Below are positions 10,730-59,509 of a stretch of DNA of 64,000 bases, piece after piece. This DNA is from an uncultured Nitrososphaerales archaeon (GTDB lineage: Archaea; Thermoproteota; Nitrososphaeria; Nitrososphaerales; Nitrososphaeraceae): assembly GCA_963695855.1 (NCBI GenBank), contig CAVOHZ010000010.1:1248001-1312000 (forward strand). Direction: 5' to 3'. Made by a program: the position numbers and the translations under genes. A model generated the notes under the pieces. That model ran no database searches. It saw nothing but the letters and a program-made list of their open reading frames with translations, and had not been told where the DNA came from. Within the stretch, counting starts at the first letter, position 1. Every line of letters starts with the position of its first letter.

Positions 10730-11396
10730 GGGTGTGTTCAGATAAGCAGCAAAAGCTATAGCTGAGAATGTTCTAAATATACTATGAAAATCAAATTTGA
10801 AAGAAATACAACATGTAACTGTATTGTAATATATTCTTTGTATCTATATTTTCTTGGTCTCAGTTTAAGAAATACTTCTAAAGTATTAATGCTCTTTAAA
10901 CAAACGTAAGAAAAGGAGTTACGTGTCTGTATGGAATTGGGGTTCAAAGATTTGGATCCTGCCAGATCTATAAAAGAAAAAGAATAACTGCCTTTATTAT
11001 AGATGAAACTATTATTCAGATTGGTAATCAGCACTTCTGGTTATGGTTTTGTATTGAACCAATCCACAGTTCTTTGCTTGGAATCTATATCTCAGAGGAG
11101 AGAAACATGATAGTTGCTGAAAAGTTCATAAGGTCTGTTGTATCAAACTATGGAACACATGCCGTGTATACAGATAATGGAGGTACATGGTATGATAAAG
11201 CATGTAACGTAATTGGATTAAAACAGTATCTACACTCACCATTTCAGAAAAATTTTGATGGAAAGAGTCAACCAGTATTTGAAAGACAGAATAGAAAGTT
11301 TTGATGATTACTCTCCTTGTATGCAAGAGGATTGTAATCTATTTCATGTACATAACTGGATACAATTCTTTGTTTCGATGTATAATGATACTATAT
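10730..11396 (+). mobile_element. IS6-family element, degenerate, right end missing
   Basis: Degenerate left TIR GGGTGTGTTCAGATAAG; frameshifted transposase (LGIYISEERNM, YTDNGGTWY, ERVNQYLKDRIESFDDY). Confidence 0.85.
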
Positions 11397-43386: not shown

Positions 43387-43400
43387 CACATAATTACTTA

Positions 43401-43680
43401 AGTTCTGTTAATTTACTATAAATTCAACTCTTCGTGCATCTCAACTATGAAATGATTTTCAAATGTTTTACCACTATACATAGAAATACAGAATTGTATA
43501 CAGTTATGTATTTGAAACAATTTTCAAATAATGAATGCAAATACTGTTTCAATCCAATCACGTTGCTTACTTGTGGACATCATGTACCATAATCGGTGTA
43601 AACTGGATATTTTCCATATCTTGACACAACTGATCTAATAAATTTTCCGCAACTACATGTTGTAACTTGAGATATAGATT
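43401..43680 (-). mobile_element. 3' half of a split IS6 element
   Basis: Reverse complement matches IS6 from AATCTATATCTCA onward (VAENFIRSVVSRYGK, NVIGLKQYLHS); TIR-like AGTTCTGTTAATTTA at 43401. Confidence 0.78.
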
Positions 43681-43709
43681 TAAGTGACGAATTTGTACTT
43701 TAGATAGAT

Positions 43710-45119
43710 ATGCTGTCTGCCTTGTCTTCGTCGTCGTTAAGAACAACAGCAAGAAAGAAGCTTAAAAAGGACTCATATACGTCCAATTATACCCCTTACG
43801 ACAAGTTTTTTCACTCGATACATAGTGACTCTACGAAAATAATGTATTCTTTTTGTTTAAAAAGGTTCCTAAAGTTCTGCAAATTTACAAAATATGAACA
43901 GTTATTGCAGATTTCTAATAAAAAGAAGGAAGAAGCAATAAGGGACCATATCATGTATTTGTTACACCATGAAAAACTGTCGTATTCAAGCATTAACAAC
44001 ACCGCTGCAGCCATTAAACATTTTTACGTTCTAAATGGAGTACGTCTATTACTTTGGGACGAGTTAAAGAGTCTAAAGGGAAAAAAGAAATCTGTAATAG
44101 TAGATAGAAAATATACTCCTGAAGAACTTAAAACATTAATTGAGTATGCGGACCTGCGTGAAAAAGTAGCAATTCTTACCATGCTTTCTTCGGGGATAAG
44201 GGTTGGTGCACTTGCAGACCTGCGTATTGGTGACCTAACATACAATGAAGAATACAAACTTTACAGGATTGTAGCATACAGTCAAGATACCGCTGAATCG
44301 TATGTAACTTATTGTACCCCCGAATGTGCTAATTATATCAATCTGTATTTGGAAGATAGAAAGAAGGGTGGCGAGACTATCACACCTGATTCACCACTTA
44401 TCACACACAAGATAAATTCAAAATCTATGAACAAAGAAAGTAAGGGTTTCATGGGTTCTCAATCTATTGAAAAGTTGTTGGACCGTGAAAGACATGACGC
44501 TAAGGTAATATCTCGTACTACAATGAAGGAGCTAAAGAAGAGAGTTGCTGCAGAAGAACAGAAGGGTAAGGGTAGTGGTGGTAAGGGTAAGACTAAAGGA
44601 CAATTAATTAGGAAGGAAGTAATGCGTACGCATGGATTTAGAAAAATTTTCGATACTGCATGTGTTGATTATGGTGTTAATCCTGTAATTAAAGAAGTAT
44701 TAATGGGACATAAAACCAAGTTGGGTTTGGATACAAGTTACTACAGACCAGGAGACGAAAATCAACTAATGCAGGAATATCTCAAAGTCATTGACGCATT
44801 AACGATAGACGACACATATAGATTAAGACGTAAGACTGAAAAACTTGAGAAAGAAGTTGAAGAAATCAATCTTTTAAAACGTCAACTTATGGAACTTGAG
44901 AAAGACAAAAAAGAGTATGAAGAAAAGACTAAGAAAGAAATAGACGCATTGTGGGAACTTAATGAAAAGCGGGAAATTGATATTTATAAAGAAGCCGTAG
45001 AATTTGCAACAAAACCAATTTCTTATGAGAAATATAAAGAACGAGAAAAAAGAAAATTAGAAAGAAGAAAGATTAATTTTTTACCAGAAAATAGAAGATG
45101 GAAAAAAATAAAAAAATGA
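43710..45119 (+). CDS. int: Tyrosine recombinase / integrase
   Basis: SGIRVGAL (R), HGFR (HxxR), LMGH and TSYY (Y); C-terminal coiled coil. Confidence 0.92.
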   Translation: MLSALSSSSLRTTARKKLKKDSYTSNYTPYDKFFHSIHSDSTKIMYSFCLKRFLKFCKFTKYEQLLQISNKKKEEAIRDHIMYLLHHEKLSYSSINNTAAAIKHFYVLNGVRLLLWDELKSLKGKKKSVIVDRKYTPEELKTLIEYADLREKVAILTMLSSGIRVGALADLRIGDLTYNEEYKLYRIVAYSQDTAESYVTYCTPECANYINLYLEDRKKGGETITPDSPLITHKINSKSMNKESKGFMGSQSIEKLLDRERHDAKVISRTTMKELKKRVAAEEQKGKGSGGKGKTKGQLIRKEVMRTHGFRKIFDTACVDYGVNPVIKEVLMGHKTKLGLDTSYYRPGDENQLMQEYLKVIDALTIDDTYRLRRKTEKLEKEVEEINLLKRQLMELEKDKKEYEEKTKKEIDALWELNEKREIDIYKEAVEFATKPISYEKYKEREKRKLERRKINFLPENRRWKKIKK

Positions 45120-45201
45120 TTATAAACAATCATTCATTCATTCATTGTAAGAAAAAAACATAAAAAAAATTTAGTAAAATTATAAATTTAATTTAAAAAA
45201 A

Positions 45202-45570
45202 TTAAAAAGAATAGTCGTCTTCCAGGTAAGATTTTGATTCTTCTTTATTCGTACTACTAACTTTTAATATATCTGCAGGTAATTTCTCAACTTCCTGGAT
45301 TGTATTGAATCTAATACCAAATTCTATTGCAAAGATATGTTTACACCTATCTGTTCTATTACTTTCAAAGTCTTTGCAACTGCACCATTCAAAAACTGAA
45401 GGTTCATAACGTACGAAGTATTAACGTGAATCACTACTTTCAGATTCTACATAATACGTGTTTTTCTTGTTCTGAAGGTGGTAGATATTGCGGGAGAGAG
45501 CGATTGCCCTTGCTCTCCCTTCTCGTCTATTCTTTGATTTCTCAATTGTTTTAGAAACTGTTTGTTTCAT
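45202..45570 (-). pseudogene. SWIM zinc-finger protein with internal TAA
   Basis: MKQTVSK...YYVESESSDSR*YFVRYEP..WCSCKDF...RCKHIFA; missed by the ORF track. Confidence 0.8.
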
Positions 45571-45687
45571 TGGTATAGTATAGTTGGTATAATTCTTATT
45601 TAAAGTATATTATTAATGATACGTATAACTTATATACCGATTAGTATAAGTGTAGTCATGGAAAATAGTATATTGGGTACTAATAGC

Positions 45688-45822
45688 ATGGTAAAGACTA
45701 TCAAAATCAGTGAAGACATACACACCAGACTTTTGAAAGTTGGTTCAATGGGAGAGACGTTTGAAGACGTTATTGAAAGGTTACTGGATTTTTATGAAAG
45801 TAAAGGGAAGTCTCAGAAATGA
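45688..45822 (+). CDS. Small ribbon-helix-helix (CopG/antitoxin-like) protein
   Basis: MVKTIKISEDIHTRLLKVGSMGETFEDVIERLLDFY. Confidence 0.8.
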   Translation: MVKTIKISEDIHTRLLKVGSMGETFEDVIERLLDFYESKGKSQK

Positions 45823-46091
45823 TAGACAATAATAATACCAGCAATAAAGACAGCAGAAGACATGGAAGGATTTATAATAAGAAAGAACTAAGGGAGAATT
45901 TTGAGGATATAGACGATATCTTACAAAACTTTGAAATGCTGTTACAGGAATTAATAGGAGAGCTGGATATAGATAAAGAAGAAATCAATACCGAAGAGGT
46001 AAGGAGCATATTGAAAGCGATGGAATATTTATGCGATGACCTTGACGACTCACCTCTTATTAATAAAATGAAACAGAATGAGTCAAAATAA
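45819..46091 (+). CDS. Acidic hypothetical protein
   Basis: ATGA overlap with the RHH gene. Confidence 0.7.
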   Translation: MIDNNNTSNKDSRRHGRIYNKKELRENFEDIDDILQNFEMLLQELIGELDIDKEEINTEEVRSILKAMEYLCDDLDDSPLINKMKQNESK

Positions 46092-46566
46092 TATTTATCC
46101 AAAAACCTGTTCTTATGGGTGTGGTTTACAAATCTACTGGAATACTGCAGAGAATACATTTTTTGAAGTTTTAACACAAAAGAAGCATATTTGTCCTAAC
46201 AGCAGAAAACCTAGTACTCCAGCTAATACTACTACAGGTAATTCATATAATTATAGTAAAAAACCCTGGTTACCAAAACAGAAAATGTCTAATTCCTTTG
46301 AATTACTTTCTGGTACGATTGCAAGTGTACAGAGACAATATGAAGTTCTGTCGGATATCGTTATAGAACTTAATGGTAAGGTACATGGTTCTCAAAGGGA
46401 TAGAGATTCAAGAACCGGTATGTTAGACTTGCTGGTATATTATGAAGTACTTGAAGGTAAGAGAGACGAAGTAAAGAGAAGGTTTGAATTTATCAAAAAC
46501 AAGCCTTCTTCGTCTACTAATGCTGCTAGTACCTATATTCCAAGTGGTAGTAGTGTAGCAGCCTAA
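46078..46566 (+). CDS. Hypothetical protein with N-terminal Cys/His zinc-binding motif
   Basis: CSYGCG...HIC; overlaps the previous gene. Confidence 0.72.
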   Translation: MSQNNIYPKTCSYGCGLQIYWNTAENTFFEVLTQKKHICPNSRKPSTPANTTTGNSYNYSKKPWLPKQKMSNSFELLSGTIASVQRQYEVLSDIVIELNGKVHGSQRDRDSRTGMLDLLVYYEVLEGKRDEVKRRFEFIKNKPSSSTNAASTYIPSGSSVAA

Positions 46567-46607
46567 TGTATATATATACTTAAACTCCTAGTAGTAGTGT
46601 AATACGC

Positions 46608-47126
46608 ATGAAGGCATTATCAGACAAAGCGAAGGTTGAACAGTTAACGGATACGCTTGCTGACCTCCTTCGTCCCAGCGATGAGGAAAATAGGGCCACA
46701 GAATTAAGTTTGTGGAAGGTATGGGCTTATCATTGTTACCGTTGTAATTATCTCTGGTTTCCTAAAGATTATGATTATGGGCTTGATAATCCCATTCTAA
46801 ATATGACTCCTCCTACGTCATGTGCCAGGTGTAAATCAAAATACTGGAATAAGATTCCACAAAGAAGGACAAAGAATTATGATAATATGCTTGCACTTCC
46901 CAGAATAGTGGCATTGAGTTTGAAGTATTTTCTTGATAGGTTTGGCAGTCCTGAAGAATTCCAGAAAGTGTATAGGGAATTCATGGCACGTAATCCCTAT
47001 ATAAAAGATAACGTAGAATTTGACGAAGCGTTCAGAAAAGAATTCGATACCCCTGACAGGATAATAATATCTAGAAATGTGAGAGATATAATTGATAGTG
47101 CAGTAGAGATAAGAAGAAATAACTAA
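46608..47126 (+). CDS. Zinc-finger hypothetical protein
   Basis: CYRCNYLW...CARCKSKYWN. Confidence 0.75.
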   Translation: MKALSDKAKVEQLTDTLADLLRPSDEENRATELSLWKVWAYHCYRCNYLWFPKDYDYGLDNPILNMTPPTSCARCKSKYWNKIPQRRTKNYDNMLALPRIVALSLKYFLDRFGSPEEFQKVYREFMARNPYIKDNVEFDEAFRKEFDTPDRIIISRNVRDIIDSAVEIRRNN

Positions 47127-47681
47127 CTAAAAATTTTTATCCTAATCCTTTCTTATTTTCATTGTTATTATTGTGTTGGGAACCAGAAAACTAAACAGTC
47201 TTCATAAAGTGGACCAGGTTAGAGTTATCCAGTTAAATGAACAGATATATCAGAGATAGAGAAATCATTTTAATGAGTTTCACTGTGGACCCGAAGATTT
47301 ATGCAATAATAAAGTTACTACGTATGAGGATATAATTATCAAGATATTAGACTTTTACGAAGAAAGGAATCAAGTCTTATTAGTTACCAAAAAAGTTCTC
47401 TATTCTTGAACACTTAAATACTAACACTTAAATAACTGTGATGGTATATTATAGTTAACACCGAAATCTCTATAATGTATTTTTGCGGCACTAACCTTAT
47501 TAAATCTAATGCAGAGAGAAAAAAAGAAGTATATGACATAACCTATGGAGAATCTTCACGCCCATTTGGTGGATAAATTTCAAGAACAAAATAATTAAGT
47601 GTTATAACAGTAGTAAATAAATAAAAAATAAGATTATAATATATAACCTTTGTAGTTTTTATTGTCTGGTTTCTCTAATGT

Positions 47682-47750
47682 AGGAACCTTGACGATACTA
47701 TCAGAAAACTACTAGATTTTTATGATAGTAAGGAGAAATCACAGAAATGA
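47682..47750 (+). pseudogene. RHH paralog remnant (C-terminal helix only)
   Basis: RNLDDTIRKLLDFYDSKEKSQK*, ATGA-coupled to 47747. Confidence 0.65.
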
Positions 47751-48259
47751 CTACTAGCGACGACGACAATAATAACAATAACGATGAAGAAGGTAAGGTA
47801 ATTCTGGATGAAGAAGGTCTGGTAATTCTGGATGAAGAAGGTCAGGTAATAATTCTGGACCCTAAGCGTAATAAGGTAATTGAATTTGTATTCGAACAGG
47901 GCGGTAAGGAAGGTAGTAGAAGAATATACATTGATGAAAAATGTCGTTGGTATTGTATAGCGGCTTCTCTGAAAGATGCGAAAGAAGGTAGGGGTAAATT
48001 CTATAAATATACTGATTTGGGCAGAAAATTATTGTTGGAAGTTTTCGCTGAATTAGATAAAACAGGTCATTTTAATGATAAAGCGATCTATAAATATACT
48101 GATTTGGGCAGAAAATTATTGTTGGAAGTTTTCGCTGAATTAGATAAAACAGGTCATTTTAATGATAAAGCGATAGAAGAAGATTACTTCTCTGATATTG
48201 TGGTTAGAAAGTGTATTGATATGATCAAAATCAAAAATGACCTATCAGATCTTAAATAA
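47747..48259 (+). CDS. Hypothetical protein with internal tandem repeats
   Basis: Three DEEGxVI(I)L units and an exact 29-aa duplication. Confidence 0.7.
   Translation: MTTSDDDNNNNNDEEGKVILDEEGLVILDEEGQVIILDPKRNKVIEFVFEQGGKEGSRRIYIDEKCRWYCIAASLKDAKEGRGKFYKYTDLGRKLLLEVFAELDKTGHFNDKAIYKYTDLGRKLLLEVFAELDKTGHFNDKAIEEDYFSDIVVRKCIDMIKIKNDLSDLK
48001..48174 (+). repeat. Exact 87-bp tandem duplication
   Basis: CTATAAATATACTG...GATAAAGCGAT repeated at 48001 and 48088. Confidence 0.95.
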
Positions 48260-48384
48260 AATTTCAATTTTATTAAATATTTAATATTTTTTTATATGCA
48301 ATATAATTTTTTAAATATACTTTTATTCTAATCTTCTTTTATTTTCTTTGTATAGGTGGTAGTGGTCCGTAACGTGGTGGCTGA

Positions 48385-48555
48385 TTGGGTAGAGTTGTAG
48401 CGGAAACAAAAGAAGGGAAATTAATTCAGATAGAAAATGAGACTTTTGAAAGAATGAAGGGAAACAGTGTACAATATGGGAAAGTAGAATCTGTTGACGA
48501 GATAATGAATAGACTACTGGATTTTTATGACAGTAAGGGAAAATCACAGAAATGA
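48385..48555 (+). CDS. RHH paralog (56 aa, TTG start)
   Basis: KLIQIENETFERMKGNSVQYGKVESVDEIMNRLLDFYDSKGKSQK. Confidence 0.75.
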   Translation: MGRVVAETKEGKLIQIENETFERMKGNSVQYGKVESVDEIMNRLLDFYDSKGKSQK

Positions 48556-48644
48556 CGTTTGGAGTGATTGAGCAATGGGTTATAGTAATTGCTCTTATTA
48601 CTGCAGCAGTTTGCTATATATCGGCAAGTAAAATGTGGGATTGA
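48552..48644 (+). CDS. 30-aa single-TM microprotein
   Basis: MTFGVIEQWVIVIALITAAVCYISASKMWD; ATGA-coupled to the RHH gene. Confidence 0.5.
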   Translation: MTFGVIEQWVIVIALITAAVCYISASKMWD

Positions 48645-48744
48645 TCAAACGGCAAGAACAAAACTGAACGCAATAAAGAATAAAATCTAAAAATTACAAG
48701 ATTTGCAAAATCTTATATCATAGGTTTTTAATCTATAAGTCGAA

Positions 48745-48903
48745 ATGTCAGTAGGAAAGTCATATAGATTTGAGGAAATCAAGTTATTTTGTTCGGATTG
48801 TAAGGGAGATAATGATCTAACTGGAGAACTTACAATCTATAAGGGAGATTTAGTTTGTAAACAATGCTTAGAGAGTAGAAAGGAACCCCAATCAACCTTC
48901 TAA
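48745..48903 (+). CDS. 52-aa zinc-finger microprotein
   Basis: CSDC...VCKQC. Confidence 0.6.
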   Translation: MSVGKSYRFEEIKLFCSDCKGDNDLTGELTIYKGDLVCKQCLESRKEPQSTF

Positions 48904-48960
48904 AAATTTTTATCCTAATTTTCTTTATAAATAAAAGTACTGGCTAGAAGATATGCAGGG

Positions 48961-49149
48961 TTGGGTGTAAGTACAAGGTTACGTGTTGTAAGTACTAATG
49001 GTAAGAGTAGCAGTAAGAAGAAGGTTGTTATGAAGATATCAGAGAAGACTTTTGAAAGGTTGAAAGAGAATAGTTTTCAGTATGGTGAAGTGGAATCTTA
49101 TGACGAGATTCTTATCAGACTATTAGATTTTTATGAACAAAGAAAATAA
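48961..49149 (+). CDS. RHH paralog
   Basis: VMKISEKTFERLKENSFQYGEVESYDEILIRLLDFY. Confidence 0.78.
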   Translation: MGVSTRLRVVSTNGKSSSKKKVVMKISEKTFERLKENSFQYGEVESYDEILIRLLDFYEQRK

Positions 49150-49178
49150 ATAAAAAAGGAGGTTGCTCCTTTGACATG

Positions 49179-50077
49179 CTAATTTCCGACAGGGAAAGAC
49201 TCTCCATTTATTTTAAGGACCGAGGAGGTTGAGATAGAAGATGCGTCCAACTCTTGGATTGTAATTGAATTTGTTGCTGTACAGGTCTGTGTTTGTCCCG
49301 CCGCTATTGTTCCCGTTGTTATGAAAGCACTGATGACTTCATCACAATCTCCTGTATATGATACAATAAGAATGGCTTGGCGGGGTGGATCGTCATGAGA
49401 TTGTATCCAAGCAATGACTTCGGTGATGTACTGCCCGAAATCTTCTATTACTTGATAATCACCTGGATTCAACGTTACGACTGTTCCACTAGTAGAACCG
49501 GGAAATTCAGAAGATGGATTTGGATTGTTACCATTCACTTGGAAAGGAAAATCACTTTCATCTACCGTTGATAGTAGGTCTTCACAATCACCTTCAATTT
49601 CGTCTGTACAGTCAATTTGTTTAGCAACCGTCAAAGTCGTTGGTGGTGGTAATTGTACCTGTTCGTTGTCATTCACATTTACACATATATTTACAAGATT
49701 CCTGTCGAAGTTTATTTTATCGAGTCCGTTACCATTTTGTGCGTTTGCTGCGTCTGGACCTGCTGTTCCTTCGTTCGCTGCTGCAGTAGCAGTAGTGTCT
49801 TCAGGTATTTGGGTAATATCTATTCCATTGACATTTATGTTACTGTTTACACAGGATATTTTCTGATATCTCCATGAGAACTCTTTTTTTGATGGTTATC
49901 ATAACTATATCTATTGCCGTCTTGGTAATAGTTGCTATCATATCCGTAATGATTGTCGTACATTTGTGCACCTGCGTTTGTAATTGTTGAAAGGTTTAGA
50001 GCCAGTATACTTGTCGCTAGTATTGCTCTCAGTATAGAAGCAAAAACTATAATTCTGTTGTTATTATTATTGCTCAA
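49179..50077 (-). pseudogene. Secreted protein, frameshifted near 49862
   Basis: Signal-peptide ORF 49847-50077 continues in another frame (KISCVNSNINVNGIDI...) into ORF 49179-49676. Confidence 0.7.
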
Positions 50078-50316
50078 TACATTGTTAAATACGAATTTAA
50101 TATATCCTAGGTTGGAAGGAACATTATCTAATCTTGTAATATTTCAAGATTCTGAATGATTGACAAGAAGAAGAATAGAAAATGATGTTAAGGTAGAAAG
50201 TTAAAACTCCTAGATAGAAAATCATACGAGAACGACAAGTAATATGGGTCGAGTAACAATTAGACTAATTAAATTTCGTTAAAAAAAAGAAATAGATGAT
50301 GGTTGGAGTAGGTGTT

Positions 50317-51108
50317 TTACACTGGAGGGAAAGTACCTACAGTCCTTAGACAATCAACAATCGCATCTATATCTGCCTGTTCTATACTAGCAATACTATC
50401 AAGTTCCGATCTAAGGGCTTGTTCATTTTTGAATTGGTCAAGTATTGCACAATATCCGTCAAGATTCCGTGTTGGAAATCCTGCTAAGAACGTTGCTAGA
50501 TCCGCTTCTTCTTGGTCGTCTAAGATACTTGTAAAGCATTCTTGACATGTTTCTGGGGGTGGTGGGAATAGTACTGGTAATAATGCTTTTTCGAAACAGT
50601 CAAAGAGACCTCTTACAACTCTATCGATATTTGTATTTGTTTGTAATAGTACAGCATCTTCTATTATTTTCAATGCATCTACAGGAGTTACTGTCTCAGT
50701 TACAAGAAAATCAAGAGCAAGTTCTAGGTTTTTACAAATATCAAATAGTTGTGCGGTATTATACTCAGCGTCAGGTGATCCGGTCGTTAAACATGTTGCT
50801 CCCGAAACTGTTGGTTCGGTATCATCTACACAATTAATACTATCAAAATTAACAAAATTTATTGCATTAATCAATGCATTAAGAAGGGTACCTGTTTGTG
50901 CAGCATTCAAGAAATGTAACCAATACTTTACACATTCTTCACATATTATTTGTTCATCCGTTAACTCAGGTGGAAGTACTGTCGGGGGATCTGCTGAAGC
51001 TTGATTAGTGGATACCTGCATTGCCGATATCGGCTTTGACATGTTCATAGTGGTTGCCAAAAAAAGCATAACTACTAGAGAGAGACCTAAGATATTTGAT
51101 TTGTGCAT
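50317..51108 (-). CDS. Secreted Cys-rich hypothetical protein
   Basis: Signal peptide; repeated CEEC / CQEC helical units. Confidence 0.78.
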   Translation of the reverse strand: MHKSNILGLSLVVMLFLATTMNMSKPISAMQVSTNQASADPPTVLPPELTDEQIICEECVKYWLHFLNAAQTGTLLNALINAINFVNFDSINCVDDTEPTVSGATCLTTGSPDAEYNTAQLFDICKNLELALDFLVTETVTPVDALKIIEDAVLLQTNTNIDRVVRGLFDCFEKALLPVLFPPPPETCQECFTSILDDQEEADLATFLAGFPTRNLDGYCAILDQFKNEQALRSELDSIASIEQADIDAIVDCLRTVGTFPPV

Positions 51109-51885
51109 TGTTCTTTTACTATTTTATATATATATTAATCTAAGGACACATTTTTCTCTAAATTTATGACAAAAATTATTTTGAGTCAGTTACTTTAAAA
51201 TAATCAAGAATATAATATAATAGAAATCTTATAAAAAGATTAAAGTTTAGATATTTCTAGTATTTTCATTAATTAATTTATAGCTGTTATTATTACAGAT
51301 ATCTTTTTCATCATCTTGATAGTTAGTCTTATCCTTAAAACTATCTATTTGTTTCTTTGATTTGAGATAATATATTAATTAAGTTCTGATAATAAAAAAT
51401 AAACATATGGTAATAGCATATGTATAGTAGATTCTTATTTCAACACAGCTATCCATTATTGGTATTAGTCTTATATATTAATTATAAAATTGTTGCAATT
51501 GTTTCAAGGTAAGATTAGTGAATAAAAATTTCCACGTTCGCCTGATCTAAAGTAATAATAAAAAGTAGGAAAATTTGGCCGTTTTACTTAATTACATATA
51601 AATTAATTATAAATATGAATTTCTATCCCATAGAAAGAAATTTGAATATACCTTTAATTCCCTGAAAATCAACGGTTATGAAGAGTGCATCTAGGAGAAC
51701 CACAAACGATTATAGTGTCTCTATTAAGGACGTGAATCATCATAGTCATTCTTTTTATACTCATAAATAAATAATATCATTGTGGCTTTTTTACACAAAA
51801 AGAGTGAAAATTATAAAGAATAAAAAATAGTAGATATAATTAGTTCAAAATAGCAATTATAAAAAATAGCACCAAACATATTTTA

Positions 51886-53334
51886 TTATTCACTGGTGAC
51901 GAATTTAACTCCTTTCAACAGCAAACGAAGTGCGTCCAAGTCATCGTTGTGGACACTCACATTTTTGTCAAGGTTCCATTCATTAGCGTAGGCAGTCTTT
52001 AGCGACAGGATTAATCTATCGAATCTGAAAGGTATAGCGAGTTTCTGTTTTGTTAAAAGTTGATATGTATGTTCCAGCATTTGTTTATGTTCTTTTGCAA
52101 AGGATACAGGTATCACAATGTTGAATTCAGGACTCACGTTCTCAGAGCGGTCCCAGTCTAAACTCTCACCGAATTTGGATTTACATTCATTAACTGCAGC
52201 CCGATTACTTCCATCCACAAACCACCATAGATTAGGGATTTCAGTATGGAGTTGAAATATACGATCACCGATTACAGAAGGAGTTGTTTTGTCATGTTGC
52301 TCACCCAGGACGATTTTAACTATTTCATTTTCTGTATCTAATTCTGCAATGTATATAGTTGTAATGGATGTAGAGAAGCCGAAATCGATCCCGCCAATAT
52401 GGAGACAGTAATTATTTAATGGTAAATCCTTGTATTTTTCCCCTAGTTGTACTGCCCTCTCTATGTCTTCAATTGCAAAAACGTTCCCAATTTTTCCTAA
52501 ATATTTTAAATCATATTCTCTATCAAATGAAGGACTTTGCTTTGCTCTCTCTATATCTTCAATAGTATAGATTTTATTCAAGCCATAACGGTAGTCAAGT
52601 TTGATTCTCTTGTATAGACAAATATCTTCAGGTTCCTGTTCTATAGTCTGCATTAATCCCCCAGGTGCATTAGGTGTTGAAACCATAACGATAAAGGGAT
52701 TTGATTTACCAATGTATCTCTCTGCTACCGCTCTTACATCCTCCTGTTCTCCCTTTCTAAAGAAGTCGCATTCGTCCAGGTAGATAAATTTAGGGTTATC
52801 CAATGAACGAAATGAATCGATATGGTTCGAGGGATACGCTTCTATCCTGCACTTCTTTAACTCTAATACAGTTTCTTTAGTATCAAATGTAATATTATGA
52901 AATTTATTCATAAACATATTCTTCATACGTTTTACAAGTTTGATTGCTAAATCTATGTTTGGACCTGTAACTATAACCATTTGTGAATCCTGATAGGTAT
53001 TATCTCGTAATGCAAGATAACACATGTATCTTAAGAATAATTCACTAATTCCTAAACCAGTACTTTTGAGAATCCATAGACACTTATCATATTCTAAACT
53101 ATCTAAAACAATTTTCTCATAATCGAATAATGGTTTTTCAATATTATCTTTTCTTGGAAGTGATAGGATATGATTAAAACAGCAATTACCACTTGTTAAA
53201 ATGTCTTCGTTTCTATGTTCTGTAATATCCCATATCCAGAATGGTTTACCCTTGAATACCTGGAATTCAGAATATTGTGTTTGTTGGTTCTGTTGTCCCT
53301 GGCCTATTAGTTTCTGTAAATCCTTCCAACCCAT
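51886..53334 (-). CDS. terL: Terminase large subunit
   Basis: ATPase: KSTGLGISE, IYLDE (Walker B), VSTP; nuclease: GGIDFG ... DDLDAL. Confidence 0.82.
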   Translation of the reverse strand: MGWKDLQKLIGQGQQNQQTQYSEFQVFKGKPFWIWDITEHRNEDILTSGNCCFNHILSLPRKDNIEKPLFDYEKIVLDSLEYDKCLWILKSTGLGISELFLRYMCYLALRDNTYQDSQMVIVTGPNIDLAIKLVKRMKNMFMNKFHNITFDTKETVLELKKCRIEAYPSNHIDSFRSLDNPKFIYLDECDFFRKGEQEDVRAVAERYIGKSNPFIVMVSTPNAPGGLMQTIEQEPEDICLYKRIKLDYRYGLNKIYTIEDIERAKQSPSFDREYDLKYLGKIGNVFAIEDIERAVQLGEKYKDLPLNNYCLHIGGIDFGFSTSITTIYIAELDTENEIVKIVLGEQHDKTTPSVIGDRIFQLHTEIPNLWWFVDGSNRAAVNECKSKFGESLDWDRSENVSPEFNIVIPVSFAKEHKQMLEHTYQLLTKQKLAIPFRFDRLILSLKTAYANEWNLDKNVSVHNDDLDALRLLLKGVKFVTSE

Positions 53335-53758
53335 TGCTATTCCCTTTAGATAATATTCTTTCCTTTGTTGATTCTACAAATCTTATTGAATCCTGCAGTA
53401 AACCGGCATTAGTTAATAATTCCATTTTAGTAGAATAACATTCTTTAATCAATGCTAATGATTGTAACTTGATTTTTATGTCACCTTCTTTTTCTGCCTT
53501 TTCTGATATTATCCATAATTGTTTATTAATTTCCTGTAATCCCTTCAAACAATTTTGATACTCATAAGGTAACGTTTTCTGTATATGGTTCTTTATGGTT
53601 TCTTCTGCTTCTATCTTCAACTGTGCAACGTCCCTGGATACTGCAGACTTGTCAATAGATAACATGCTTGCAATTTCAGACTGACAAAATCCCTTAATCA
53701 TTAATTCGTCAATTTTGTTTCTACGCCATTCTAACTGTTGTTTCCTAGAAGTTGTCAT
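53267..53758 (-). CDS. Putative terminase small subunit (HTH + coiled coil)
   Basis: QSEIASMLSIDKSAVSRDV HTH; directly upstream of and overlapping terL. Confidence 0.65.
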   Translation of the reverse strand: MTTSRKQQLEWRRNKIDELMIKGFCQSEIASMLSIDKSAVSRDVAQLKIEAEETIKNHIQKTLPYEYQNCLKGLQEINKQLWIISEKAEKEGDIKIKLQSLALIKECYSTKMELLTNAGLLQDSIRFVESTKERILSKGNSNGLEGFTETNRPGTTEPTNTIF

Positions 53759-54235
53759 TCTTAGATTTTCCTTTTCAATAATTATATGGTTTCATTACTT
53801 TTGTCTTTTTCTACTCTGGGAATCATGGGATTATTGTTAGATTTATAGATTTCTAGGAAAAAAATATTGAAAATCAATATCCTAAAAAGATAAGATATTA
53901 ACAAGTTAATAGGTTACAAGGCTTCTTCTGGGGACCTATACGAAAAATATCTTCCAGACTTTGAAAAGATGTTAAAATCGTTCAAGTGGATAGATTGAAA
54001 ATAATTAAAATGATTTTGAATTAAAATAAAAAAATAAAAAAATAAAAGCAAGAAATAACAGGTAAATAAAAATATCTAGAGAATTGAGTTTTGGACCAAG
54101 TTTATTTATTTTAAAGATTTACAAATGAATTATTGATAGAATATTTCATTATGAATATATATCATGTTATTACGATAGGAAAGAGATTGAGAAGAGTTAA
54201 TACGTGCCTCTTTCATTGGTATATTTTCTTTTGCT

Positions 54236-54877
54236 ATGATCTTTTCCTCTATTATGACATATACAGATGAACAAAAGGCATACGGACAATCTAGTAATTT
54301 TACTAAATTTACTTCAAAGGATTTAGAGACAGCAAAGGAGGCAGCAAAACAGGCAAAATTAAGAGAATTTATCTTGGAAATTCAAGGTGTTAGCACAAGT
54401 AATCCACAGGTTACACAATTCCAAATTTCTGGAGATGGTAACAAAATCTGTAGATCTGGCAATTGTAAATATGAATTTGGCACAATAAATATATCATTGC
54501 CAACTGTCGAAAATACTGGTCTTACTCTACGAATAGATTTTCAGTTATATGATCAACAATCACAAAAATGGGAACTATATAGCATGACCAGTCTTTCCGG
54601 TATAAATGAGACAGATATAAGTAATCTAATTTACACATTTAATGAACCTCTAGGATCTCTCAGGTTGCACCCTGCAGAAAGTGAAAATCCAATCGATCAA
54701 TCTCTTGATGAAGATGGATGGTTTAATTGGTGGAATGAAAATACTTGGTATTATGATACAGGACCTGTAGAGTATAGATCAGGTGAAGATCGCTTAATAA
54801 TGACCGGCACTTTCAATGGTCACGACGTCCCGACGTATGATAGTGATGATATACAGGTGATTAAATTATTTGATTAA
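54236..54877 (+). CDS. Hypothetical (probably secreted) protein
   Basis: 213-aa ORF with AYG signal-cleavage-like site. Confidence 0.65.
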   Translation: MIFSSIMTYTDEQKAYGQSSNFTKFTSKDLETAKEAAKQAKLREFILEIQGVSTSNPQVTQFQISGDGNKICRSGNCKYEFGTINISLPTVENTGLTLRIDFQLYDQQSQKWELYSMTSLSGINETDISNLIYTFNEPLGSLRLHPAESENPIDQSLDEDGWFNWWNENTWYYDTGPVEYRSGEDRLIMTGTFNGHDVPTYDSDDIQVIKLFD

Positions 54878-55035
54878 CTAATTCGTTTTTTAGAAAATAG
54901 AATTTTGTTATAATGTATAGCCCTTATAATTTTTATTGTCTTTATCTAGTCTGGGAATATCGACAGGATTATCATTAGTCAGACCTATGTCTTCCATTTC
55001 TTATGATATCTTTGATTGGAATTGTTGGATAAGTT

Positions 55036-56172
55036 TCAATCGTTGCCATTAATTGAAACCCCTATTCCTTTAATGACTAGCAAAGAGTACAAATTACTAT
55101 GATTGGTTTTTATCTTCTGTCTACTCATTGGACCGTACTCTTTGTTTTGTGCGTTTCTCAGTGCTTGATTAATTCTCTTATCGATATACCACCAACCGCC
55201 TAACTTCCTTAATGACTCACATTTCTGCAACCACTCTTTAATAATCTGTCTAACTTCGTTATCCGTTAACCCTTTTATCTTGACAAGATAAGGAACTAGA
55301 ATCAACTCAACAATTTCTTTTCTGCAGTCGTCAACCGGTGTTTCTAATAATCTCTCTATCCAGTTGTAATAATTATGGAAATTATTTCCAAAATTATTAT
55401 TATGATTTTTTCGTTTCCACTTTTCTAATTCCTTTATTTGTTTTTCCTGTTCTAACTCAAAGTCTATCTTCTTTTGTATCAGATATTCGTGAAACATGGT
55501 AAACAGTTCTTTTGTAATTGTAGGACGGTATCCGTTCCATTCCTGTATAATTTTCACTGTAACGTTATTTTTGGAATTAATAGAACCTGGAATCCTTAGA
55601 AGACATGATCTAAAAGACGGATTGTGGGACTTGTCTGCTTTATTGTCCGATAATAAAATTTTTGCAAATCTTAAAAATTCTTCTGCAGGATTACCATTTA
55701 CAATTAGTCTAGAATCTGCAAATTCCCTAAATCTCTGATTTATCAAATAGTCATTTACAGGACAGTTTACAGGTTGTATTACGTGATAACCATTACCGGA
55801 CCATAGGACGGTAGGTTTTGTGTTTTTACCAAAATATTTCGAAATATTTCTTAGTATGTGAGCTTTCGCAATATCTAACTCATTCTTTCTAGATTTGAAG
55901 TCCGATAAATCCAAGTCAATGAAAAACAAATCTGGAATCCAGGATTTACCGTCTCTCAATAATGGAAATGCGTTAATTCTACAATCTATGAACTTGGAAT
56001 CTAAAAATGCTATTATTATCTCGTCCATATTGTCAACTTGGAAAGTTCTGTTACTGGATTCGTATGTTGAGATTTTACGTGGAAATACAGGTTTTGAAAG
56101 GTGATTTAAAATAAAGTCTAAATCTTGGGATTCAGATAATTCCTTTCTTGAAATGGTTTCTAGGGTTGTCAT
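55036..56172 (-). CDS. Archaeo-eukaryotic primase fused to a PriX-like C-terminal domain
   Basis: FIDLD (motif I), SGNGYH (II), LRIPGSIN (III); C-terminal WIERLL.TPV.D.RK..V.LIL.PYL. Confidence 0.78.
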   Translation of the reverse strand: MTTLETISRKELSESQDLDFILNHLSKPVFPRKISTYESSNRTFQVDNMDEIIIAFLDSKFIDCRINAFPLLRDGKSWIPDLFFIDLDLSDFKSRKNELDIAKAHILRNISKYFGKNTKPTVLWSGNGYHVIQPVNCPVNDYLINQRFREFADSRLIVNGNPAEEFLRFAKILLSDNKADKSHNPSFRSCLLRIPGSINSKNNVTVKIIQEWNGYRPTITKELFTMFHEYLIQKKIDFELEQEKQIKELEKWKRKNHNNNFGNNFHNYYNWIERLLETPVDDCRKEIVELILVPYLVKIKGLTDNEVRQIIKEWLQKCESLRKLGGWWYIDKRINQALRNAQNKEYGPMSRQKIKTNHSNLYSLLVIKGIGVSINGND

Positions 56173-58193
56173 TCCCAGGGATTTCCTTTGAACTCTACTC
56201 GTTCACCATTTTGCTTCATGGTATTGATTAACGACTTGCTTGGTTGTGCTGGTTTTTTTGCATGAAAATTCAAACAGTGTTTTAGGTGTTCTTTTTCTGT
56301 CGAAAATTCATTATCGCAATAATTGCATTTGTATTGTTGGGGGAAGGTATGTAAAGTATCGTCAATATCGTCCAATCGTCCAGAGTCCTCATTTTGAGCG
56401 TGATTTTGACTGTTTTCTTTGGACGATACTTTGGACGATATATTTTCACTATTTTTAATATCGTCCATTTTTTCACCCTGATTTTGAGCGTGATTTTCCG
56501 TTTTTTGACGGTTTGACGATATTGACGGTATTATACATACTATTTCTATTACCCTTTTTCCTTTATTGTCCTTCTTTCCAATTTCAATCAGAAATCCGCG
56601 TTCTCTAAGATTTGTCTTTGCTTCATTTAATCTGCGTGTGAGTACGTTGGGTGCTTTGGGAAATGAAGTGACTTTGGAAATATTTATTTTTAAATCTCGT
56701 ACTGCAATGTCTTCAAGTCGTGTTAATAATTCGCTTGAAGTACCACTCCATTTTTCTTTATATTCTACTATGTTACCGTCTTCATCTTGTTTATCAATCA
56801 TAAATATGATAAGTGCTTGGGATACCGCACTTTCTGCAATTGCTTCCTCAATCTGGACGTTGATATTATCTTGGTAGACTCTGAGAAACTCACCTTCTTT
56901 ATTACCCAAACACTGTGAAATTATCTCTCCATATTCTTCAAAATCCGCCATTCGGTTAAGTCCCTTTTCAATCGTAATTCCCCCATTTTGTTTAACCTGG
57001 AGAACCTTCACCAGAATATTGAAAAGATATCCCAGTAGTTTGGGTCTCATGGCTTCAAATTCGTTCCAGATATCTTCTTGTTTTCTTCTATTTTCTTTGG
57101 GAATTCTTTCTAGTTTTATAATAATACTTCTATCTAATAGGTCGGGTTTTGTTGCTCCTATGTTGATACCGTTAATACCCACGCATCTTTTAAAGGAATA
57201 GATTATGTCGTCATCATCTGTATACAATTGTCTCTTTGAGAATCCACTACCGGTTACAGCCCTGCATAATGCGTCAGAAACCCAATCATTTATTTTTGAA
57301 ACATTATCAAAATATGCGATATAGTTGTGGGATAGTTTCTGAATAAGTTCGTTGATATCTCTAGGAAATGTTAGGGTTTTGACGCTACTAGGGTCTATTA
57401 ACATTCTTATCAGCTCCTGAAATGTAGATTTTGCACTCCCTTGTTCTCCGTATAGTAGATTGACTGGTTTAGAAATGTCGGGAATTAATAACGAAACAAT
57501 CTTTACCTTTACCAATAATTTTGTGTCCTCGTCCGCTATGTTCAGAAGACTAATAAATTTGTCTAGAAGTGGTTCGTCGTATTCCTCTGTCGGTAAAATA
57601 GGAGTAACCTGGGGTAATTGACTGCTAAAATGTCTAAACAGAATGGGAGGAGTTTTTTCTATTGTCCAACCTTGCGGAGTTATCTTTATTACGCTTCCAT
57701 CGTTATTTACCAAGTCATAATAGAACGTATACTTATCTTCGTCCGTCCTTGCTACTCTTAATTCCAGTCTTTTGATAATACCATTAAATTCTGCCTTTGA
57801 TTGCACATAGTCTATGATATTATTTTTTTCCTTTTCCTTGAGTACAATTTTATACTCACTGTCGTAAAATAATTTGAATATGTATCTTTCAAATTTGTGA
57901 CTTGTTAAAGATATTGGTTCGTAATGTCCATCCTTTATTTTCACACATCCAAATAGTTTACCGTACTGGTCTTTGAACAGTAACTTAATGTGAGTATCCG
58001 CATAAGCAAAAAGGATTTCTGTATTATTCTCTCCTTCGTCTTCTTCTTCTTCGTCTTCTTCTTCGTATTCTGCTGCTGATTGCGATTTTCCGTTTTGTTT
58101 GTTGTATTCTTTTAAAATTTCTAACTGGTTATCGTTAAGAAGTCTTCTGCATTGCAGCTTCGATTCATTATCATTTATCCCGTACTCGTTCAT
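56169..58193 (-). CDS. Replicative helicase-like P-loop ATPase with C-terminal C2H2 finger
   Basis: GEQGSAKS (Walker A), AYFDNV (Walker B), DLLDR; CNYC..H...H; ATGA overlap with the primase. Confidence 0.75.
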   Translation of the reverse strand: MNEYGINDNESKLQCRRLLNDNQLEILKEYNKQNGKSQSAAEYEEEDEEEEDEGENNTEILFAYADTHIKLLFKDQYGKLFGCVKIKDGHYEPISLTSHKFERYIFKLFYDSEYKIVLKEKEKNNIIDYVQSKAEFNGIIKRLELRVARTDEDKYTFYYDLVNNDGSVIKITPQGWTIEKTPPILFRHFSSQLPQVTPILPTEEYDEPLLDKFISLLNIADEDTKLLVKVKIVSLLIPDISKPVNLLYGEQGSAKSTFQELIRMLIDPSSVKTLTFPRDINELIQKLSHNYIAYFDNVSKINDWVSDALCRAVTGSGFSKRQLYTDDDDIIYSFKRCVGINGINIGATKPDLLDRSIIIKLERIPKENRRKQEDIWNEFEAMRPKLLGYLFNILVKVLQVKQNGGITIEKGLNRMADFEEYGEIISQCLGNKEGEFLRVYQDNINVQIEEAIAESAVSQALIIFMIDKQDEDGNIVEYKEKWSGTSSELLTRLEDIAVRDLKINISKVTSFPKAPNVLTRRLNEAKTNLRERGFLIEIGKKDNKGKRVIEIVCIIPSISSNRQKTENHAQNQGEKMDDIKNSENISSKVSSKENSQNHAQNEDSGRLDDIDDTLHTFPQQYKCNYCDNEFSTEKEHLKHCLNFHAKKPAQPSKSLINTMKQNGERVEFKGNPWE
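56357..56530. repeat. Iteron-like cluster (candidate replication origin)
   Basis: About 9 copies of GACG(A/G)T(A) in both orientations plus 17-bp ATTTTGAGCGTGATTTT at 56391 and 56481. Confidence 0.6.
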
Positions 58194-58416
58194 TTGTTCC
58201 CAGAATAGTATAAAATTCTTAGTCCAGTTTTTGCGGTTTAATGTCCAATTAATAGGACCATTTACCTTATGATTTGGGAAACTTCTATTATGTCCGTAAT
58301 TCTGTTAAATGTTGCACGTTCAAACAATCCAGTCTTTTTCAAATCGTCGTTTATTACAAAATTGAAAATTTCTACATTTTCGTTTTCATTATTATTTGCT
58401 TCTGTATTAGACATTT

Positions 58417-58716
58417 CTAAAACTCTCCCATATTGTAGATTTTTACCAATTCTTCAATCAAATCGCCTTTGAGGTAAACTTGCCCCTTTCTAGGACCAAA
58501 TTCTTCACTTTGTTTTGTTTCTTCATTGTGTTGCGGTGAGTAAATCGAGTTCTCATCTACAATATTGCAAATTTCATATTTTGAGTCTAGAATTTTAACT
58601 AATTCACAAACAGGACATTTACAAGTATCACATGTGAAACTTTTTATTCGATTTTTAGGTTTGGACAAGGTTATACAACTCTCCCGTATGCTACAAGTGG
58701 AGATACAAAAGAACAA
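58417..58716 (-). CDS. Small Cys-rich hypothetical protein
   Basis: CDTCKCPVC; co-oriented with the replication genes. Confidence 0.5.
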   Translation of the reverse strand: MFFCISTCSIRESCITLSKPKNRIKSFTCDTCKCPVCELVKILDSKYEICNIVDENSIYSPQHNEETKQSEEFGPRKGQVYLKGDLIEELVKIYNMGEF

Positions 58717-58951
58717 GATTTCCCAATGCCTAGGAGAGCGGTAGGAGAGAAAATTCTGAAATTTTTGAACTTTCTTCCTTTAGTAGTACAAAAGCTATTT
58801 ATCTGTGAAATGTTATAATTCATTTCAAGAGACACGCCAGTGTTGTAATGTTGAGGTTAAGACCCTCAAGGAAGAAGAACTCTCGTCGCTGCTAATAACC
58901 GCTGTTGTGTGGACTGCGCGTAGGCCTGGAATCCTAGCAGTCCATGCGAAA

Positions 58952-59155
58952 CTATGTAACGTGATTTTTAACCTCCTTCTCGACTAAATCAAAAAGTTTA
59001 CCAAGGGCGTCGTCGTACGTATCCCCGATATTTCCCAACCTTCGCAATTTTTTCTTATGTTTCATTGAAATGACAATATGCGTCATCTCGTCATCTTCTT
59101 CTTCTAATTCTCTTCTGCCAACCTGGTGGTCGACAGTTAAAAGACTTGCAATCAT
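58952..59155 (-). CDS. RHH-like regulator
   Basis: THIVISMKHKKKLRRLGNIGDTYDDALGKLFD. Confidence 0.72.
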   Translation of the reverse strand: MIASLLTVDHQVGRRELEEEDDEMTHIVISMKHKKKLRRLGNIGDTYDDALGKLFDLVEKEVKNHVT

Positions 59156-59283
59156 TTAATTGAATTAAATTAATTACCGCATTATAAGTTGTTCTTTTTC
59201 TTAGAATTCTTCAGCAACATATTGGATTTTACGCACGAATCATTAAATCAACCGTATACCTAAAGGACAGGCTTTACTGTTTA

Positions 59284-59508
59284 ATATAGATTCCAAGGAC
59301 AGAACTGTGTATTGGTTCAATACAGAACCATAACCCGAAATGCAGGCTAGCGATTTGAATATCCATTTCATGTGTAATAAAAATAGATACTCTTTTTCTT
59401 TTATAGATCTGACATGATCCAAATCTTTGCATCCAATATGACAGACACGTAACCCATTTCTAATGCTTGTATTACTAATGCCATGGAAATATTTCTTAAG
59501 CTCAACCA
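59284..59508 (-). mobile_element. 5' half of the split IS6 transposase
   Basis: Reverse complement reads QRFGSCQIYKRKR...LWFCIEPIHSSVLGIY and ends at CTTGGAATCTATAT. Confidence 0.8.
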
Positions 59509-59509
59509 A

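What the first reader, a model, noticed from the sequence alone, without database searches (positions are those of the whole stretch)
43401..59508. The element is integrated inside an IS6 transposase at a 9-bp core
Seen: the IS6 5' half (59284-59508, minus strand) stops at ...CTTGGAATCTATAT and the 3' half (43401-43680) resumes at AATCTATATCTCA. Joining them restores CTTGGAATCTATATCTCA, as in the uninterrupted IS at about 11078-11095. ATATAGATT is present at both junctions. Reconstructed attB CTTGAGA-TATAGAT-TCCAAG and attP TTTAA-TATAGAT-TTAA have dyad arms around a 7-bp spacer, as expected for tyrosine recombinase cores. Inference: the integrase targets a multicopy IS rather than a tRNA, which would give many low-cost landing sites.
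Basis: partly seen in the sequence, partly recalled or inferred. Interest (0 to 1): 0.85.

Follow-up and report, generated by a model that had tools for sequence, protein, structure and literature searches.

The report
Archaeal integrative element inside IS6 relic
A 15.6-kb mobile element with its own integrase sits inside a dead copy of a common jumping gene in a soil archaeon, joined at a 9-base match, but nothing shows that it seeks out such jumping genes as a rule.

Summary
Window 43681-59283 is a 15.6-kb element carrying a tyrosine integrase, TerL, a TerS-like gene, a PriX-domain primase and an ATPase. It splits one decayed IS6-family transposase pseudogene. ATATAGATT stands at both junctions (43672-43680, 59284-59292). 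Removing the element in silico restores an IS that aligns across the joint with 46 of 50 genomic hits.

Integrase-mediated recombination at a 9-bp core fits. No terminal inverted repeats are present, the int gene starts 30 bp from the junction, and thaumarchaeal att sites as short as 8 bp are published.

Dedicated IS targeting is not shown:
- This is the only IS copy split at the core; 37 copies in this genome are contiguous, and none was found split in a relative with at least 150 copies.
- None of 6 other int-family loci checked and none of 69 homologous integrase loci abuts an IS6 fragment.
- The proposed dyad arms are no better than 45% of control sites.
- IS6 DNA is 1.35% of the genome, which holds about 12 related elements, so one chance hit has odds near 0.15.

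In favour: any site of 15 bp or more around the core occurs only in IS6 copies, and one attP arm weakly resembles the IS.

I read it as a new member of a known kind, of modest interest.

The parts
43389..43680 (-). 3' half of a decayed IS6-family transposase pseudogene (host side of attL)
   Evidence: nhmmer IS profile places it at model 375-546 (E 6.6e-24) and 640-761 (E 3.8e-4), with model 547-639 deleted. Also blastn and alignment A1.
43672..43680 (.). 9-bp core copy ATATAGATT at the integrase-proximal junction (attL)
   Evidence: Sequence. It lies inside the overlap of the two IS halves.
43681..59283 (.). Integrated element, 15,603 bp
   Evidence: Bounded by the two IS halves. Deleting it restores IS continuity in 46 of 50 alignments. 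Its ends are unique in the assembly.
43694..43706 (+). TGTACTTTAGATA motif, 13 nt inside the left core, just upstream of int
   Evidence: TTGTACYTTARA occurs 7 times in the genome, 3 of them upstream of int paralogues. It pairs 11 of 13 with an inverted copy near the right end.
43710..45119 (+). Tyrosine recombinase/integrase, 469 aa, intact
   Evidence: PHROG_1 integrase E 1.5e-12. PF00589 E 1.9e-5, below the cutoff. XerA NCBIfam E 2e-15, below the cutoff. It aligns to XerA 4a8e. R, HxxR, GH and Y are invariant in 7 of 7 family members. An in-frame stop at 43701 bounds the ORF.
51886..53334 (-). Large terminase subunit (TerL), 482 aa
   Evidence: PHROG_2 terminase large subunit, E 7.5e-24. 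About 12 paralogous loci lie on the same contig.
53267..53758 (-). TerS-like small ORF upstream of TerL (inferred from position)
   Evidence: Only PHROG_9628, of unknown function, at E 1.2e-4. Conserved next to TerL in 2 paralogous elements. The function is inferred.
55036..56172 (-). PriX-domain protein, putative primase
   Evidence: PF18689 PriX at 47 bits against a cutoff of 25, E 3.3e-12, residues 269-365. Four paralogues on the contig at 45-52% identity.
56169..58193 (-). 674-aa ATPase/helicase-like protein (inferred)
   Evidence: No Pfam or PHROG family. Atlas feature hits at 0.91 to 'ATP-binding protein' clusters, and a PriCT_1 lead at 0.88. A Walker-A-like GEQGSAKST is read from the translation.
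59257..59269 (-). Inverted copy of the motif (TGTCCTTTAGGTA on the minus strand), 14 nt inside the right core
   Evidence: Local alignment matches 11 of 13. 218 of 2000 shuffles reach the score anywhere within 60 nt, so support is weak apart from the symmetric position.
59284..59292 (.). 9-bp core copy ATATAGATT at the distal junction (attR)
   Evidence: Sequence.
59284..59505 (-). 5' half of the same IS6 pseudogene (host side of attR), lacking its first ~76 nt of ORF and its left end
   Evidence: nhmmer model 157-386, E 1.4e-41; blastn.
10784..11395 (+). Uninterrupted but frameshifted IS6 copy used as the empty-site comparison
   Evidence: tblastn in three pieces, q1-49, 52-171 and 152-202. 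It contains the 18-mer at 11078-11095.

Best explanation
A 15.6-kb TerL-bearing integrative element of a Nitrososphaeraceae-type archaeon entered the chromosome by conservative site-specific recombination, catalysed by its own tyrosine integrase. Its attP lies 30 bp upstream of int. The recombination partner was a chromosomal site that shares only a 9-bp core (ATATAGATT). That site lies in the middle of an already dead, diverged IS6 transposase relic.

Shown: the insertion, the 9-bp identity, the intact integrase with its catalytic residues, and the absence of transposon-type ends.

Inferred: that the integrase did it, that strand exchange lies within the 9 bp, and that the IS relic was dead before the event. 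The last rests on the two core copies being 9 of 9 identical while the flanking IS DNA is 24-41% diverged from every other copy.

The choice of an IS is best read as opportunistic. An integrase with a very short identity requirement used a sequence that happens to be the commonest variant at a conserved position of a high-copy IS. Evidence of dedicated IS homing is lacking.
For: - Complementary IS halves with a 9-nt overlap. The restored IS aligns across the joint in 46 of 50 hits.
- int starts at 43710, 30 bp from the core, and is bounded by a stop at 43701.
- Integrase HMM hits. R, HxxR, GH and Y are invariant in 7 of 7 relatives, and the protein aligns to XerA 4a8e.
- No terminal inverted repeats: 8 of 30 identical in register. 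No transposase or Cas1 family was found among the 10 largest ORFs.
- Published thaumarchaeal att sites are as short as 8 bp, with a median of 17 bp (PMC6563490, section 6 read).

For 'opportunistic':
- It is the only IS copy split at the core. 37 copies have contiguous halves in this genome, and none was split among the flagged candidates in relative G012, which has at least 150 IS6 matches.
- None of the 5 paralogous int loci on C10 abuts IS DNA.
- None of 69 homologous int loci abuts IS6.
- IS6 DNA is 1.35% of the genome. With about 12 related elements, the chance of at least one hit is 0.15.
- 16 of the 221 other occurrences of the 9-mer sit at the homologous IS position, so a core-only integrase would land there about 7% of the time.
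- A vacant intergenic site shares 16 bp with attP.
Against: - Real tyrosine-recombinase attB sites are usually about 20 bp or more. Every other genomic match of 15 bp or more to the used site lies in IS6 loci. There are 3 copies of the 18-mer and 12 of CTTGG+core, with 0 outside. Other IS copies are therefore the obvious secondary targets.
- The attP arm next to int resembles the IS 5' arm in register. The best match is 14 of 25, reached by 2 of 199 control sites, and the mean match is reached by 1 of 199. A gapped measure puts it only at about the 90th-95th percentile.
- The core is the commonest variant at this IS position: 46 of 125 sites, including 32 of 86 in other Nitrososphaeraceae records.
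- The homologous integrases examined are distant (at most 59% identity in this genome, at most 48% in relatives). Their different sites say little about this enzyme.
- No close relative of this integrase or of the element's ends was found anywhere, so specificity could not be tested on true orthologues.
Confidence: 0.6

Rival explanations
1. Dedicated IS homing. The integrase has evolved to use the conserved LGIYIS-coding segment of the high-copy IS6 family as its attB. This would give many harmless and portable landing sites.
For: - All matches of 15 bp or more to the used site are in IS6 copies.
- The core is the modal variant at this position in the family, in 46 of 125 sites across genomes.
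- One attP arm is IS-like in register, reached by 2 of 199 and 1 of 199 controls.
- Insertion is mid-ORF without gene restoration, which is tolerable only in a dispensable gene.
- The published survey lists targets as tRNA genes, intergenic regions and 3'-distal gene ends.
Against: - Only a single event is seen.
- 37 contiguous IS copies in this genome are unoccupied, among them 16 with the exact core and 3 with the exact 18-mer.
- No copy split at the core was found in G012.
- None of 69 homologous int loci and none of 5 paralogues abuts IS6.
- The occupied copy is the most decayed one, not a typical one.
- The arm similarity is weak by a gapped measure.
- The dyad arms are at chance level.
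Confidence: 0.25
2. Secondary-site use. The element's primary attB, with longer identity to attP, lies in another host or locus, and the IS relic is a pseudo-attB used because the primary site is missing here.
For: - Only 9 bp of identity, at the low end of the published thaumarchaeal range.
- No IS copy in 125 sites matches the attP arms beyond 14 of 25.
- The element has no close relative in 24 genus genomes, which fits recent arrival from elsewhere.
Against: - No longer attP match exists in this genome except a 16-nt AT-rich intergenic string at chance level, E 0.17, and it is vacant.
- No candidate primary site was found. Other genomes could not be searched with the joined attP.
Confidence: 0.1
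3. Transposition with a 9-bp target-site duplication by a DDE transposase or casposase, rather than integrase recombination.
For: A 9-bp direct repeat is also what staggered-cut transposition leaves. Casposons exist in this phylum (PMC6563490, passages).
Against: - No terminal inverted repeats in register, 8 of 30.
- No transposase or Cas1 hit among the 10 largest ORFs.
- An intact integrase sits 30 bp from the junction.
Confidence: 0.03
4. Not one split IS. Either two unrelated IS fragments happen to flank the element, or the assembly is chimeric.
For: The best-matching copies differ between the halves, and the identity profiles of the halves correlate only 0.37, against 0.68 among intact copies.
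Against: - The halves abut at exactly the same 9 nt of the IS and together cover the gene in order.
- Both are more diverged than any intact pair, as expected for one old relic.
- Both halves are at most 85.5% identical to any other copy, so a repeat-induced misjoin is unlikely.
Confidence: 0.02

Closest known systems
Thaumarchaeal integrated elements with tyrosine integrases and short att sites (Krupovic et al. 2019, PMC6563490), especially NitKor-E1
   Same: Same host lineage, judged from record titles. Both have a tyrosine integrase and a very short att; the paper reports 8 bp at minimum and a median of 17 bp. NitKor-E1 likewise has TerS, TerL and an integrase with no other virion genes, and the authors call its terminase 'enigmatic' (section 6 and passages read).
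   Different: The paper's 68 sites are 39 tRNA genes, 15 intergenic regions and 14 3'-distal regions of protein genes, and none of the listed target genes is a transposase. Its Table S2 could not be opened. Here the site is mid-ORF in an IS6 relic, and the element also carries a PriX-domain primase and an ATPase.
Lambda/XerA-type tyrosine recombination: a core with a 6-8 bp overlap flanked by inverted core-type sites
   Same: The catalytic R, HxxR, H and Y residues are conserved. There is a short identity segment, and attP lies next to int.
   Different: The inverted arms next to the core are at chance level. A possible 13-bp inverted pair lies 13-14 nt away instead. No activity data exist. 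The integrase has a long lysine/glutamate-rich C-terminal tail.
RmInt1 group II intron, which resides in the transposase gene of ISRm2011-2 in Sinorhizobium meliloti (PMC3035460)
   Same: One mobile element uses the transposase gene of a multicopy IS as its home site and interrupts it (abstract and discussion passages).
   Different: RmInt1 is an RNA-guided retrohoming intron, with many occupied IS copies and an experimentally defined homing site. Here there is a DNA recombinase and a single event.
Phage satellites of the PICI type (recalled from general knowledge; no call)
   Same: About 15 kb, with an integrase, a primase/helicase replication module and terminase genes, but no capsid or portal detected.
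   Different: No helper virus, packaging site or induction is known, and archaeal counterparts are not established. This is a resemblance only.

Membership tests
IS6 family insertion sequence (the target) | DDE_Tnp_IS240 / IS6 transposase homology | tested here: met
   An intact paralogue scores PF13610 at 32.1 bits against a cutoff of 27. NF033587 gives E 7e-28 over the full length, but its 97.7 bits are below the 125 cutoff. The split halves match the family DNA profile at E 1.4e-41 and 6.6e-24.
IS6 family insertion sequence (the target) | Terminal inverted repeats and 8-bp target duplication of the IS itself | not tested
   IS ends were not mapped. The relic lacks its 5' end.
Tyrosine recombinase integrase | Family HMM match | tested here: inconclusive
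   PF00589 scores 24.9 bits against a cutoff of 27.1. XerA NF040815 scores 57 bits against a cutoff of 220. PHROG_1 integrase gives E 1.5e-12.
Tyrosine recombinase integrase | Catalytic R...HxxR...H...Y | tested here: met
   GIRVG, HGFRK, GH and YYRP are invariant in 7 of 7 aligned family members. The first Arg region aligns to XerA 4a8e.
Tyrosine recombinase integrase | Recombination of attP with attB | not testable with these tools
Lambda-like core site | Inverted core-type arms flanking a 6-8 bp overlap | tested here: not met
   Arms score 4 of 7 for attB and attP. 45% of 199 control sites score as high or higher.
IS-homing element (dedicated targeting of an IS) | Repeated independent insertions at the same IS position | tested here: not met
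   One split copy against 37 contiguous copies in this genome. None of the 7 flagged candidates in G012 is split at the core.
IS-homing element (dedicated targeting of an IS) | Homologous integrases also sit in the IS | tested here: not met
   None of 69 loci in relatives abuts IS6; one has an IS 5' fragment about 650 nt away. None of the 5 paralogues does. All are at most 59% identical, so this is a weak test.
IS-homing element (dedicated targeting of an IS) | attP arms resemble the IS beyond the core | tested here: inconclusive
   In register, the best match is 14 of 25, reached by 2 of 199 controls. By gapped local score it is at about the 90th-95th percentile. The other arm shows no similarity.
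Head-tailed (Caudoviricetes) provirus | TerL | tested here: met
   PHROG_2, E 7.5e-24.
Head-tailed (Caudoviricetes) provirus | Capsid, portal and tail genes | tested here: not met
   7 of the 10 largest ORFs have no Pfam family and 7 of 10 no PHROG family, and none is a virion family. The largest unassigned ORF is 263 aa. Remote homologues are not excluded.
TSD-forming transposon or casposon | Terminal inverted repeats and a transposase or Cas1 | tested here: not met
   8 of 30 identical in register. No such family among the 10 largest ORFs.

The most novel reading that the evidence does not exclude
The integrase is a true IS6-homing enzyme. A family of terminase-bearing, capsid-less (satellite-like) archaeal elements would use the conserved catalytic-core coding segment of a high-copy IS6 as a portable safe-harbour attB. 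That would make every IS6 copy, in any Nitrososphaeraceae host that carries the IS, a landing pad, and would make the element a natural inactivator of the IS.
Probability: 0.2. Interest if true: 0.7.

Novelty: new member of a known kind. Interest (0 to 1): 0.3.

Why it matters
If the IS were a real, preferred target, this would be a DNA-recombinase counterpart of intron homing into insertion sequences. It would be a neat answer to how integrative elements find harmless, widely distributed sites in archaea.

As it stands, the finding gives a cleanly mapped 9-bp att site, because the paralogous IS copies act as empty sites. Such maps are scarce for soil ammonia-oxidiser relatives, whose att sites are too short to find by repeats alone. 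It also points to a multi-copy family of terminase-bearing elements without capsid genes, which is worth separate study.

Tried and rejected
- **Direct-repeat searches for the paralogous elements.** Searches for the att sites of p473, p1488, p1532, p318 and p1484 gave only chance-level repeats of 8-14 nt, so their sites stay undefined.
- **The 9-mer upstream of p473.** The same 9-mer lies about 80 nt upstream of the closest paralogous int, in the opposite orientation. I considered it a second IS-like site. I dropped it because the 9-mer occurs about once per 32 kb per strand, nhmmer finds no IS there, and its flank is not among the top IS-like control flanks.
- **Lone IS fragments.** The fragment at C10:1342378-1342656 breaks about 25-30 nt from the core. 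The fragment at C10:56076 is diverged but not cleanly broken at the core.
- **Searches for close relatives.** Single-protein scans with the integrase found nothing in genome contigs, viral contigs or metagenome contigs. A DNA search with the element's right end in 24 genus relatives gave only chance hits of 22-34 nt.
- **Sequencing runs.** The look-up of sequencing runs listed 19 runs with shares of 0.23 or less, all kept as contigs.
- **Protein atlas.** The atlas search on the 674-aa protein gave only unnamed 'ATP-binding' clusters.
- **Literature.** Searches found no paper describing a tyrosine-integrase element whose attB lies in an IS transposase gene. That covers those four searches only. 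Supplementary Table S2 of PMC6563490 could not be opened and might list such a case.


Full report
**What is there.** The window is G000:C10:1248001-1312000 of a 3.55-Mb, roughly 31% GC genome. The flanking genes are archaeal and ordinary: TFIIB and an aldehyde dehydrogenase. All 80 listed relatives of the IS transposase come from Nitrososphaeraceae or Nitrososphaerales records, so I take the host to be of that lineage; this is an inference.

**The split IS.** blastn within the window aligns 43521-43680 to 11251..11082 and 59284-59509 to 11090..10854. The two pieces are therefore complementary parts of one IS gene and share 9 nt. MAFFT (A1) and an nhmmer profile built from 24 full-length copies agree. 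The right half covers model positions 157-386, and the left half covers 375-546 plus 640-761. I joined the flanks by coordinates in a script and searched the genome with the result. 46 of 50 hits ran unbroken across the joint. An intact paralogue of 219 aa passes Pfam DDE_Tnp_IS240. It also matches NCBIfam transpos_IS6 over its full length, below the curated cutoff.

**State of the relic.** The relic is badly decayed. It lacks about 76 nt of the ORF 5' end and its left end, has a 93-nt deletion, and has broken frames. Its halves are 58-76% and 59-69% identical to the other copies, whereas intact copies average 75-77% to each other. The two 9-bp cores are nevertheless identical and the element's large ORFs are intact. 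I infer that the element arrived after the IS copy had already died.

**The element (43681-59283).** It encodes:
- an intact tyrosine recombinase that starts 30 bp from the left core, with R, HxxR, GH and Y invariant in 7 of 7 relatives and a match to XerA 4a8e;
- TerL (PHROG_2, E 7.5e-24);
- a small TerS-like ORF, assigned from its position only;
- a PriX-domain protein (PF18689, above the cutoff);
- a 674-aa ATPase-like protein.

Seven of the ten largest ORFs have no Pfam family and seven of ten have no PHROG family. No capsid or portal was seen. The ends are not inverted repeats, with 8 of 30 positions identical in register. This rules against a transposon-type target duplication. It favours recombination between attP and a chromosomal site sharing the 9-bp core. 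A 9-bp identity is within the published range for this phylum: att sites as short as 8 bp, median 17 bp (PMC6563490, section 6).

**Is the IS a chosen target? Evidence for.**
- The 9-mer occurs 223 times in the genome. Two occurrences are the junctions, 16 sit at the homologous position of uninterrupted IS copies, and 199 lie outside IS loci.
- Once 2-3 nt are added on each side, nearly all other matches are in IS6 copies. At 13 bp there are 4 inside and 1 outside. From 15 bp there are none outside. The exact 18-mer occurs in 3 other copies.
- The core is the commonest variant at this IS position, found in 46 of 125 sites, including 32 of 86 in other genomes.
- The attP arm next to int matches the IS 5' arm at up to 14 of 25 positions in register. 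That level is reached by 2 of 199 control flanks.

**Is the IS a chosen target? Evidence against.**
- A gapped score puts that arm only at about the 90th-95th percentile. The other arm shows nothing.
- No IS copy among 125 sites matches attP better than 14 of 25.
The CAAG arm is a peculiarity of this mutated relic.
- 37 IS copies in this genome have contiguous halves, and none of the 14 other unpaired segments breaks at the core.
- In the best-assembled relative (G012, at least 150 IS6 matches) I searched the two transposase halves separately and fetched 7 flagged orphan or split candidates. All were contiguous through the core except one, which carries a 1.06-kb insertion 45-50 nt away from it.
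- The five paralogous int loci on C10 (30-60% identity) have no IS6 DNA abutting them. For three of them none lies within 30 kb.
- Of 69 homologous int loci in relatives, none abuts IS6. These were 11 loci with 1.5-kb flanks and 58 with about 700 nt upstream; two of the 58 were cut to under 300 nt by contig ends. One locus has an IS 5' fragment about 650 nt away.
- IS6 DNA makes up 1.35% of the genome in 94 loci. The contig holds about 12 TerL-bearing relatives, so one chance landing in an IS has a probability of about 0.15.
- A vacant intergenic site shares 16 bp with attP, itself at chance level.

**Limits.** No close relative of this integrase or of the element's ends was found, so orthologues with the same specificity could not be examined.

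**Verdict.** The insertion and the 9-bp core are real. The integrase mechanism is the best reading, with the steps inferred as marked above. Dedicated IS targeting remains an open minority reading at about 0.2-0.25. Against the literature, this is a new member of the known class of thaumarchaeal integrated elements with short att sites. It has an unreported kind of target, mid-ORF in a transposase. The nearest conceptual precedent is the RmInt1 intron in ISRm2011-2 (PMC3035460).

Noticed in passing
G000 contig C10: 479990, 748796, 1108868, 1475376, 1495519, 1525907, 1699540, 1761997, 1785175, 1804026 and window 51886-53334: About 12 TerL loci on one contig at 45-92% identity. Several have the same module order: TerS-like ORF, TerL, PriX primase, ATPase. 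No capsid or portal was detected among the large ORFs tested. Modules are shuffled: TerL is 92% identical to the element's, while the next closest integrase is 59%. Two elements carry a different integrase family at the opposite end. This looks like a capsid-less, satellite-like family similar to the 'enigmatic' NitKor-E1.
   Followed up: partly
whole genome; relatives G012, G010, G017: There is a large expansion of one IS6 family. This genome has 94 merged loci (1.35% of its DNA).
   Followed up: partly
window 43693-43704; C10:1488320; C10:1532443 (minus strand): The motif TTGTACYTTARA occurs only 7 times in the genome. Three occurrences lie 5-20 nt upstream of paralogous integrase genes. It may be a promoter element or an integrase-binding site.
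   Followed up: partly
C3:255962, C8:260849, C10:1666627: Three near-identical, apparently intact IS copies carry the same 9-mer a second time, just upstream of the transposase ATG. At the internal site two of them (C8, C10) have the variant AATTCATAT; the C3 copy has the exact core.
   Followed up: no
window 40356-40949 (-) and 60533-61258 (-); window 59509-59699: ORFs with RTX calcium-binding repeats lie on both sides of the insertion region. The 190 nt just beyond the IS 5' half are 85.6% identical to C10:1316480-1316673, outside the window. This suggests a segmental repeat that truncated the IS relic.
   Followed up: no
C10:822690-822705: A vacant intergenic 16-nt string is identical to the reconstructed attP across the core. 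It lies about 220 nt from a tRNA-Thr(GGT) gene. Statistically it is at chance level (E 0.17).
   Followed up: partly
L109 (G012:C12:43300-45500): An IS6 copy in a relative is interrupted by about 1.06 kb of DNA, 45-50 nt downstream of the core position. The insert was not identified.
   Followed up: no
window 44520-45119 (integrase residues ~270-469): The integrase has a glycine/lysine-rich insert before the HxxR box and a lysine/glutamate-rich, coiled-coil-like C-terminal tail of about 75 residues. The closest paralogue shares these features; most relatives do not.
   Followed up: no
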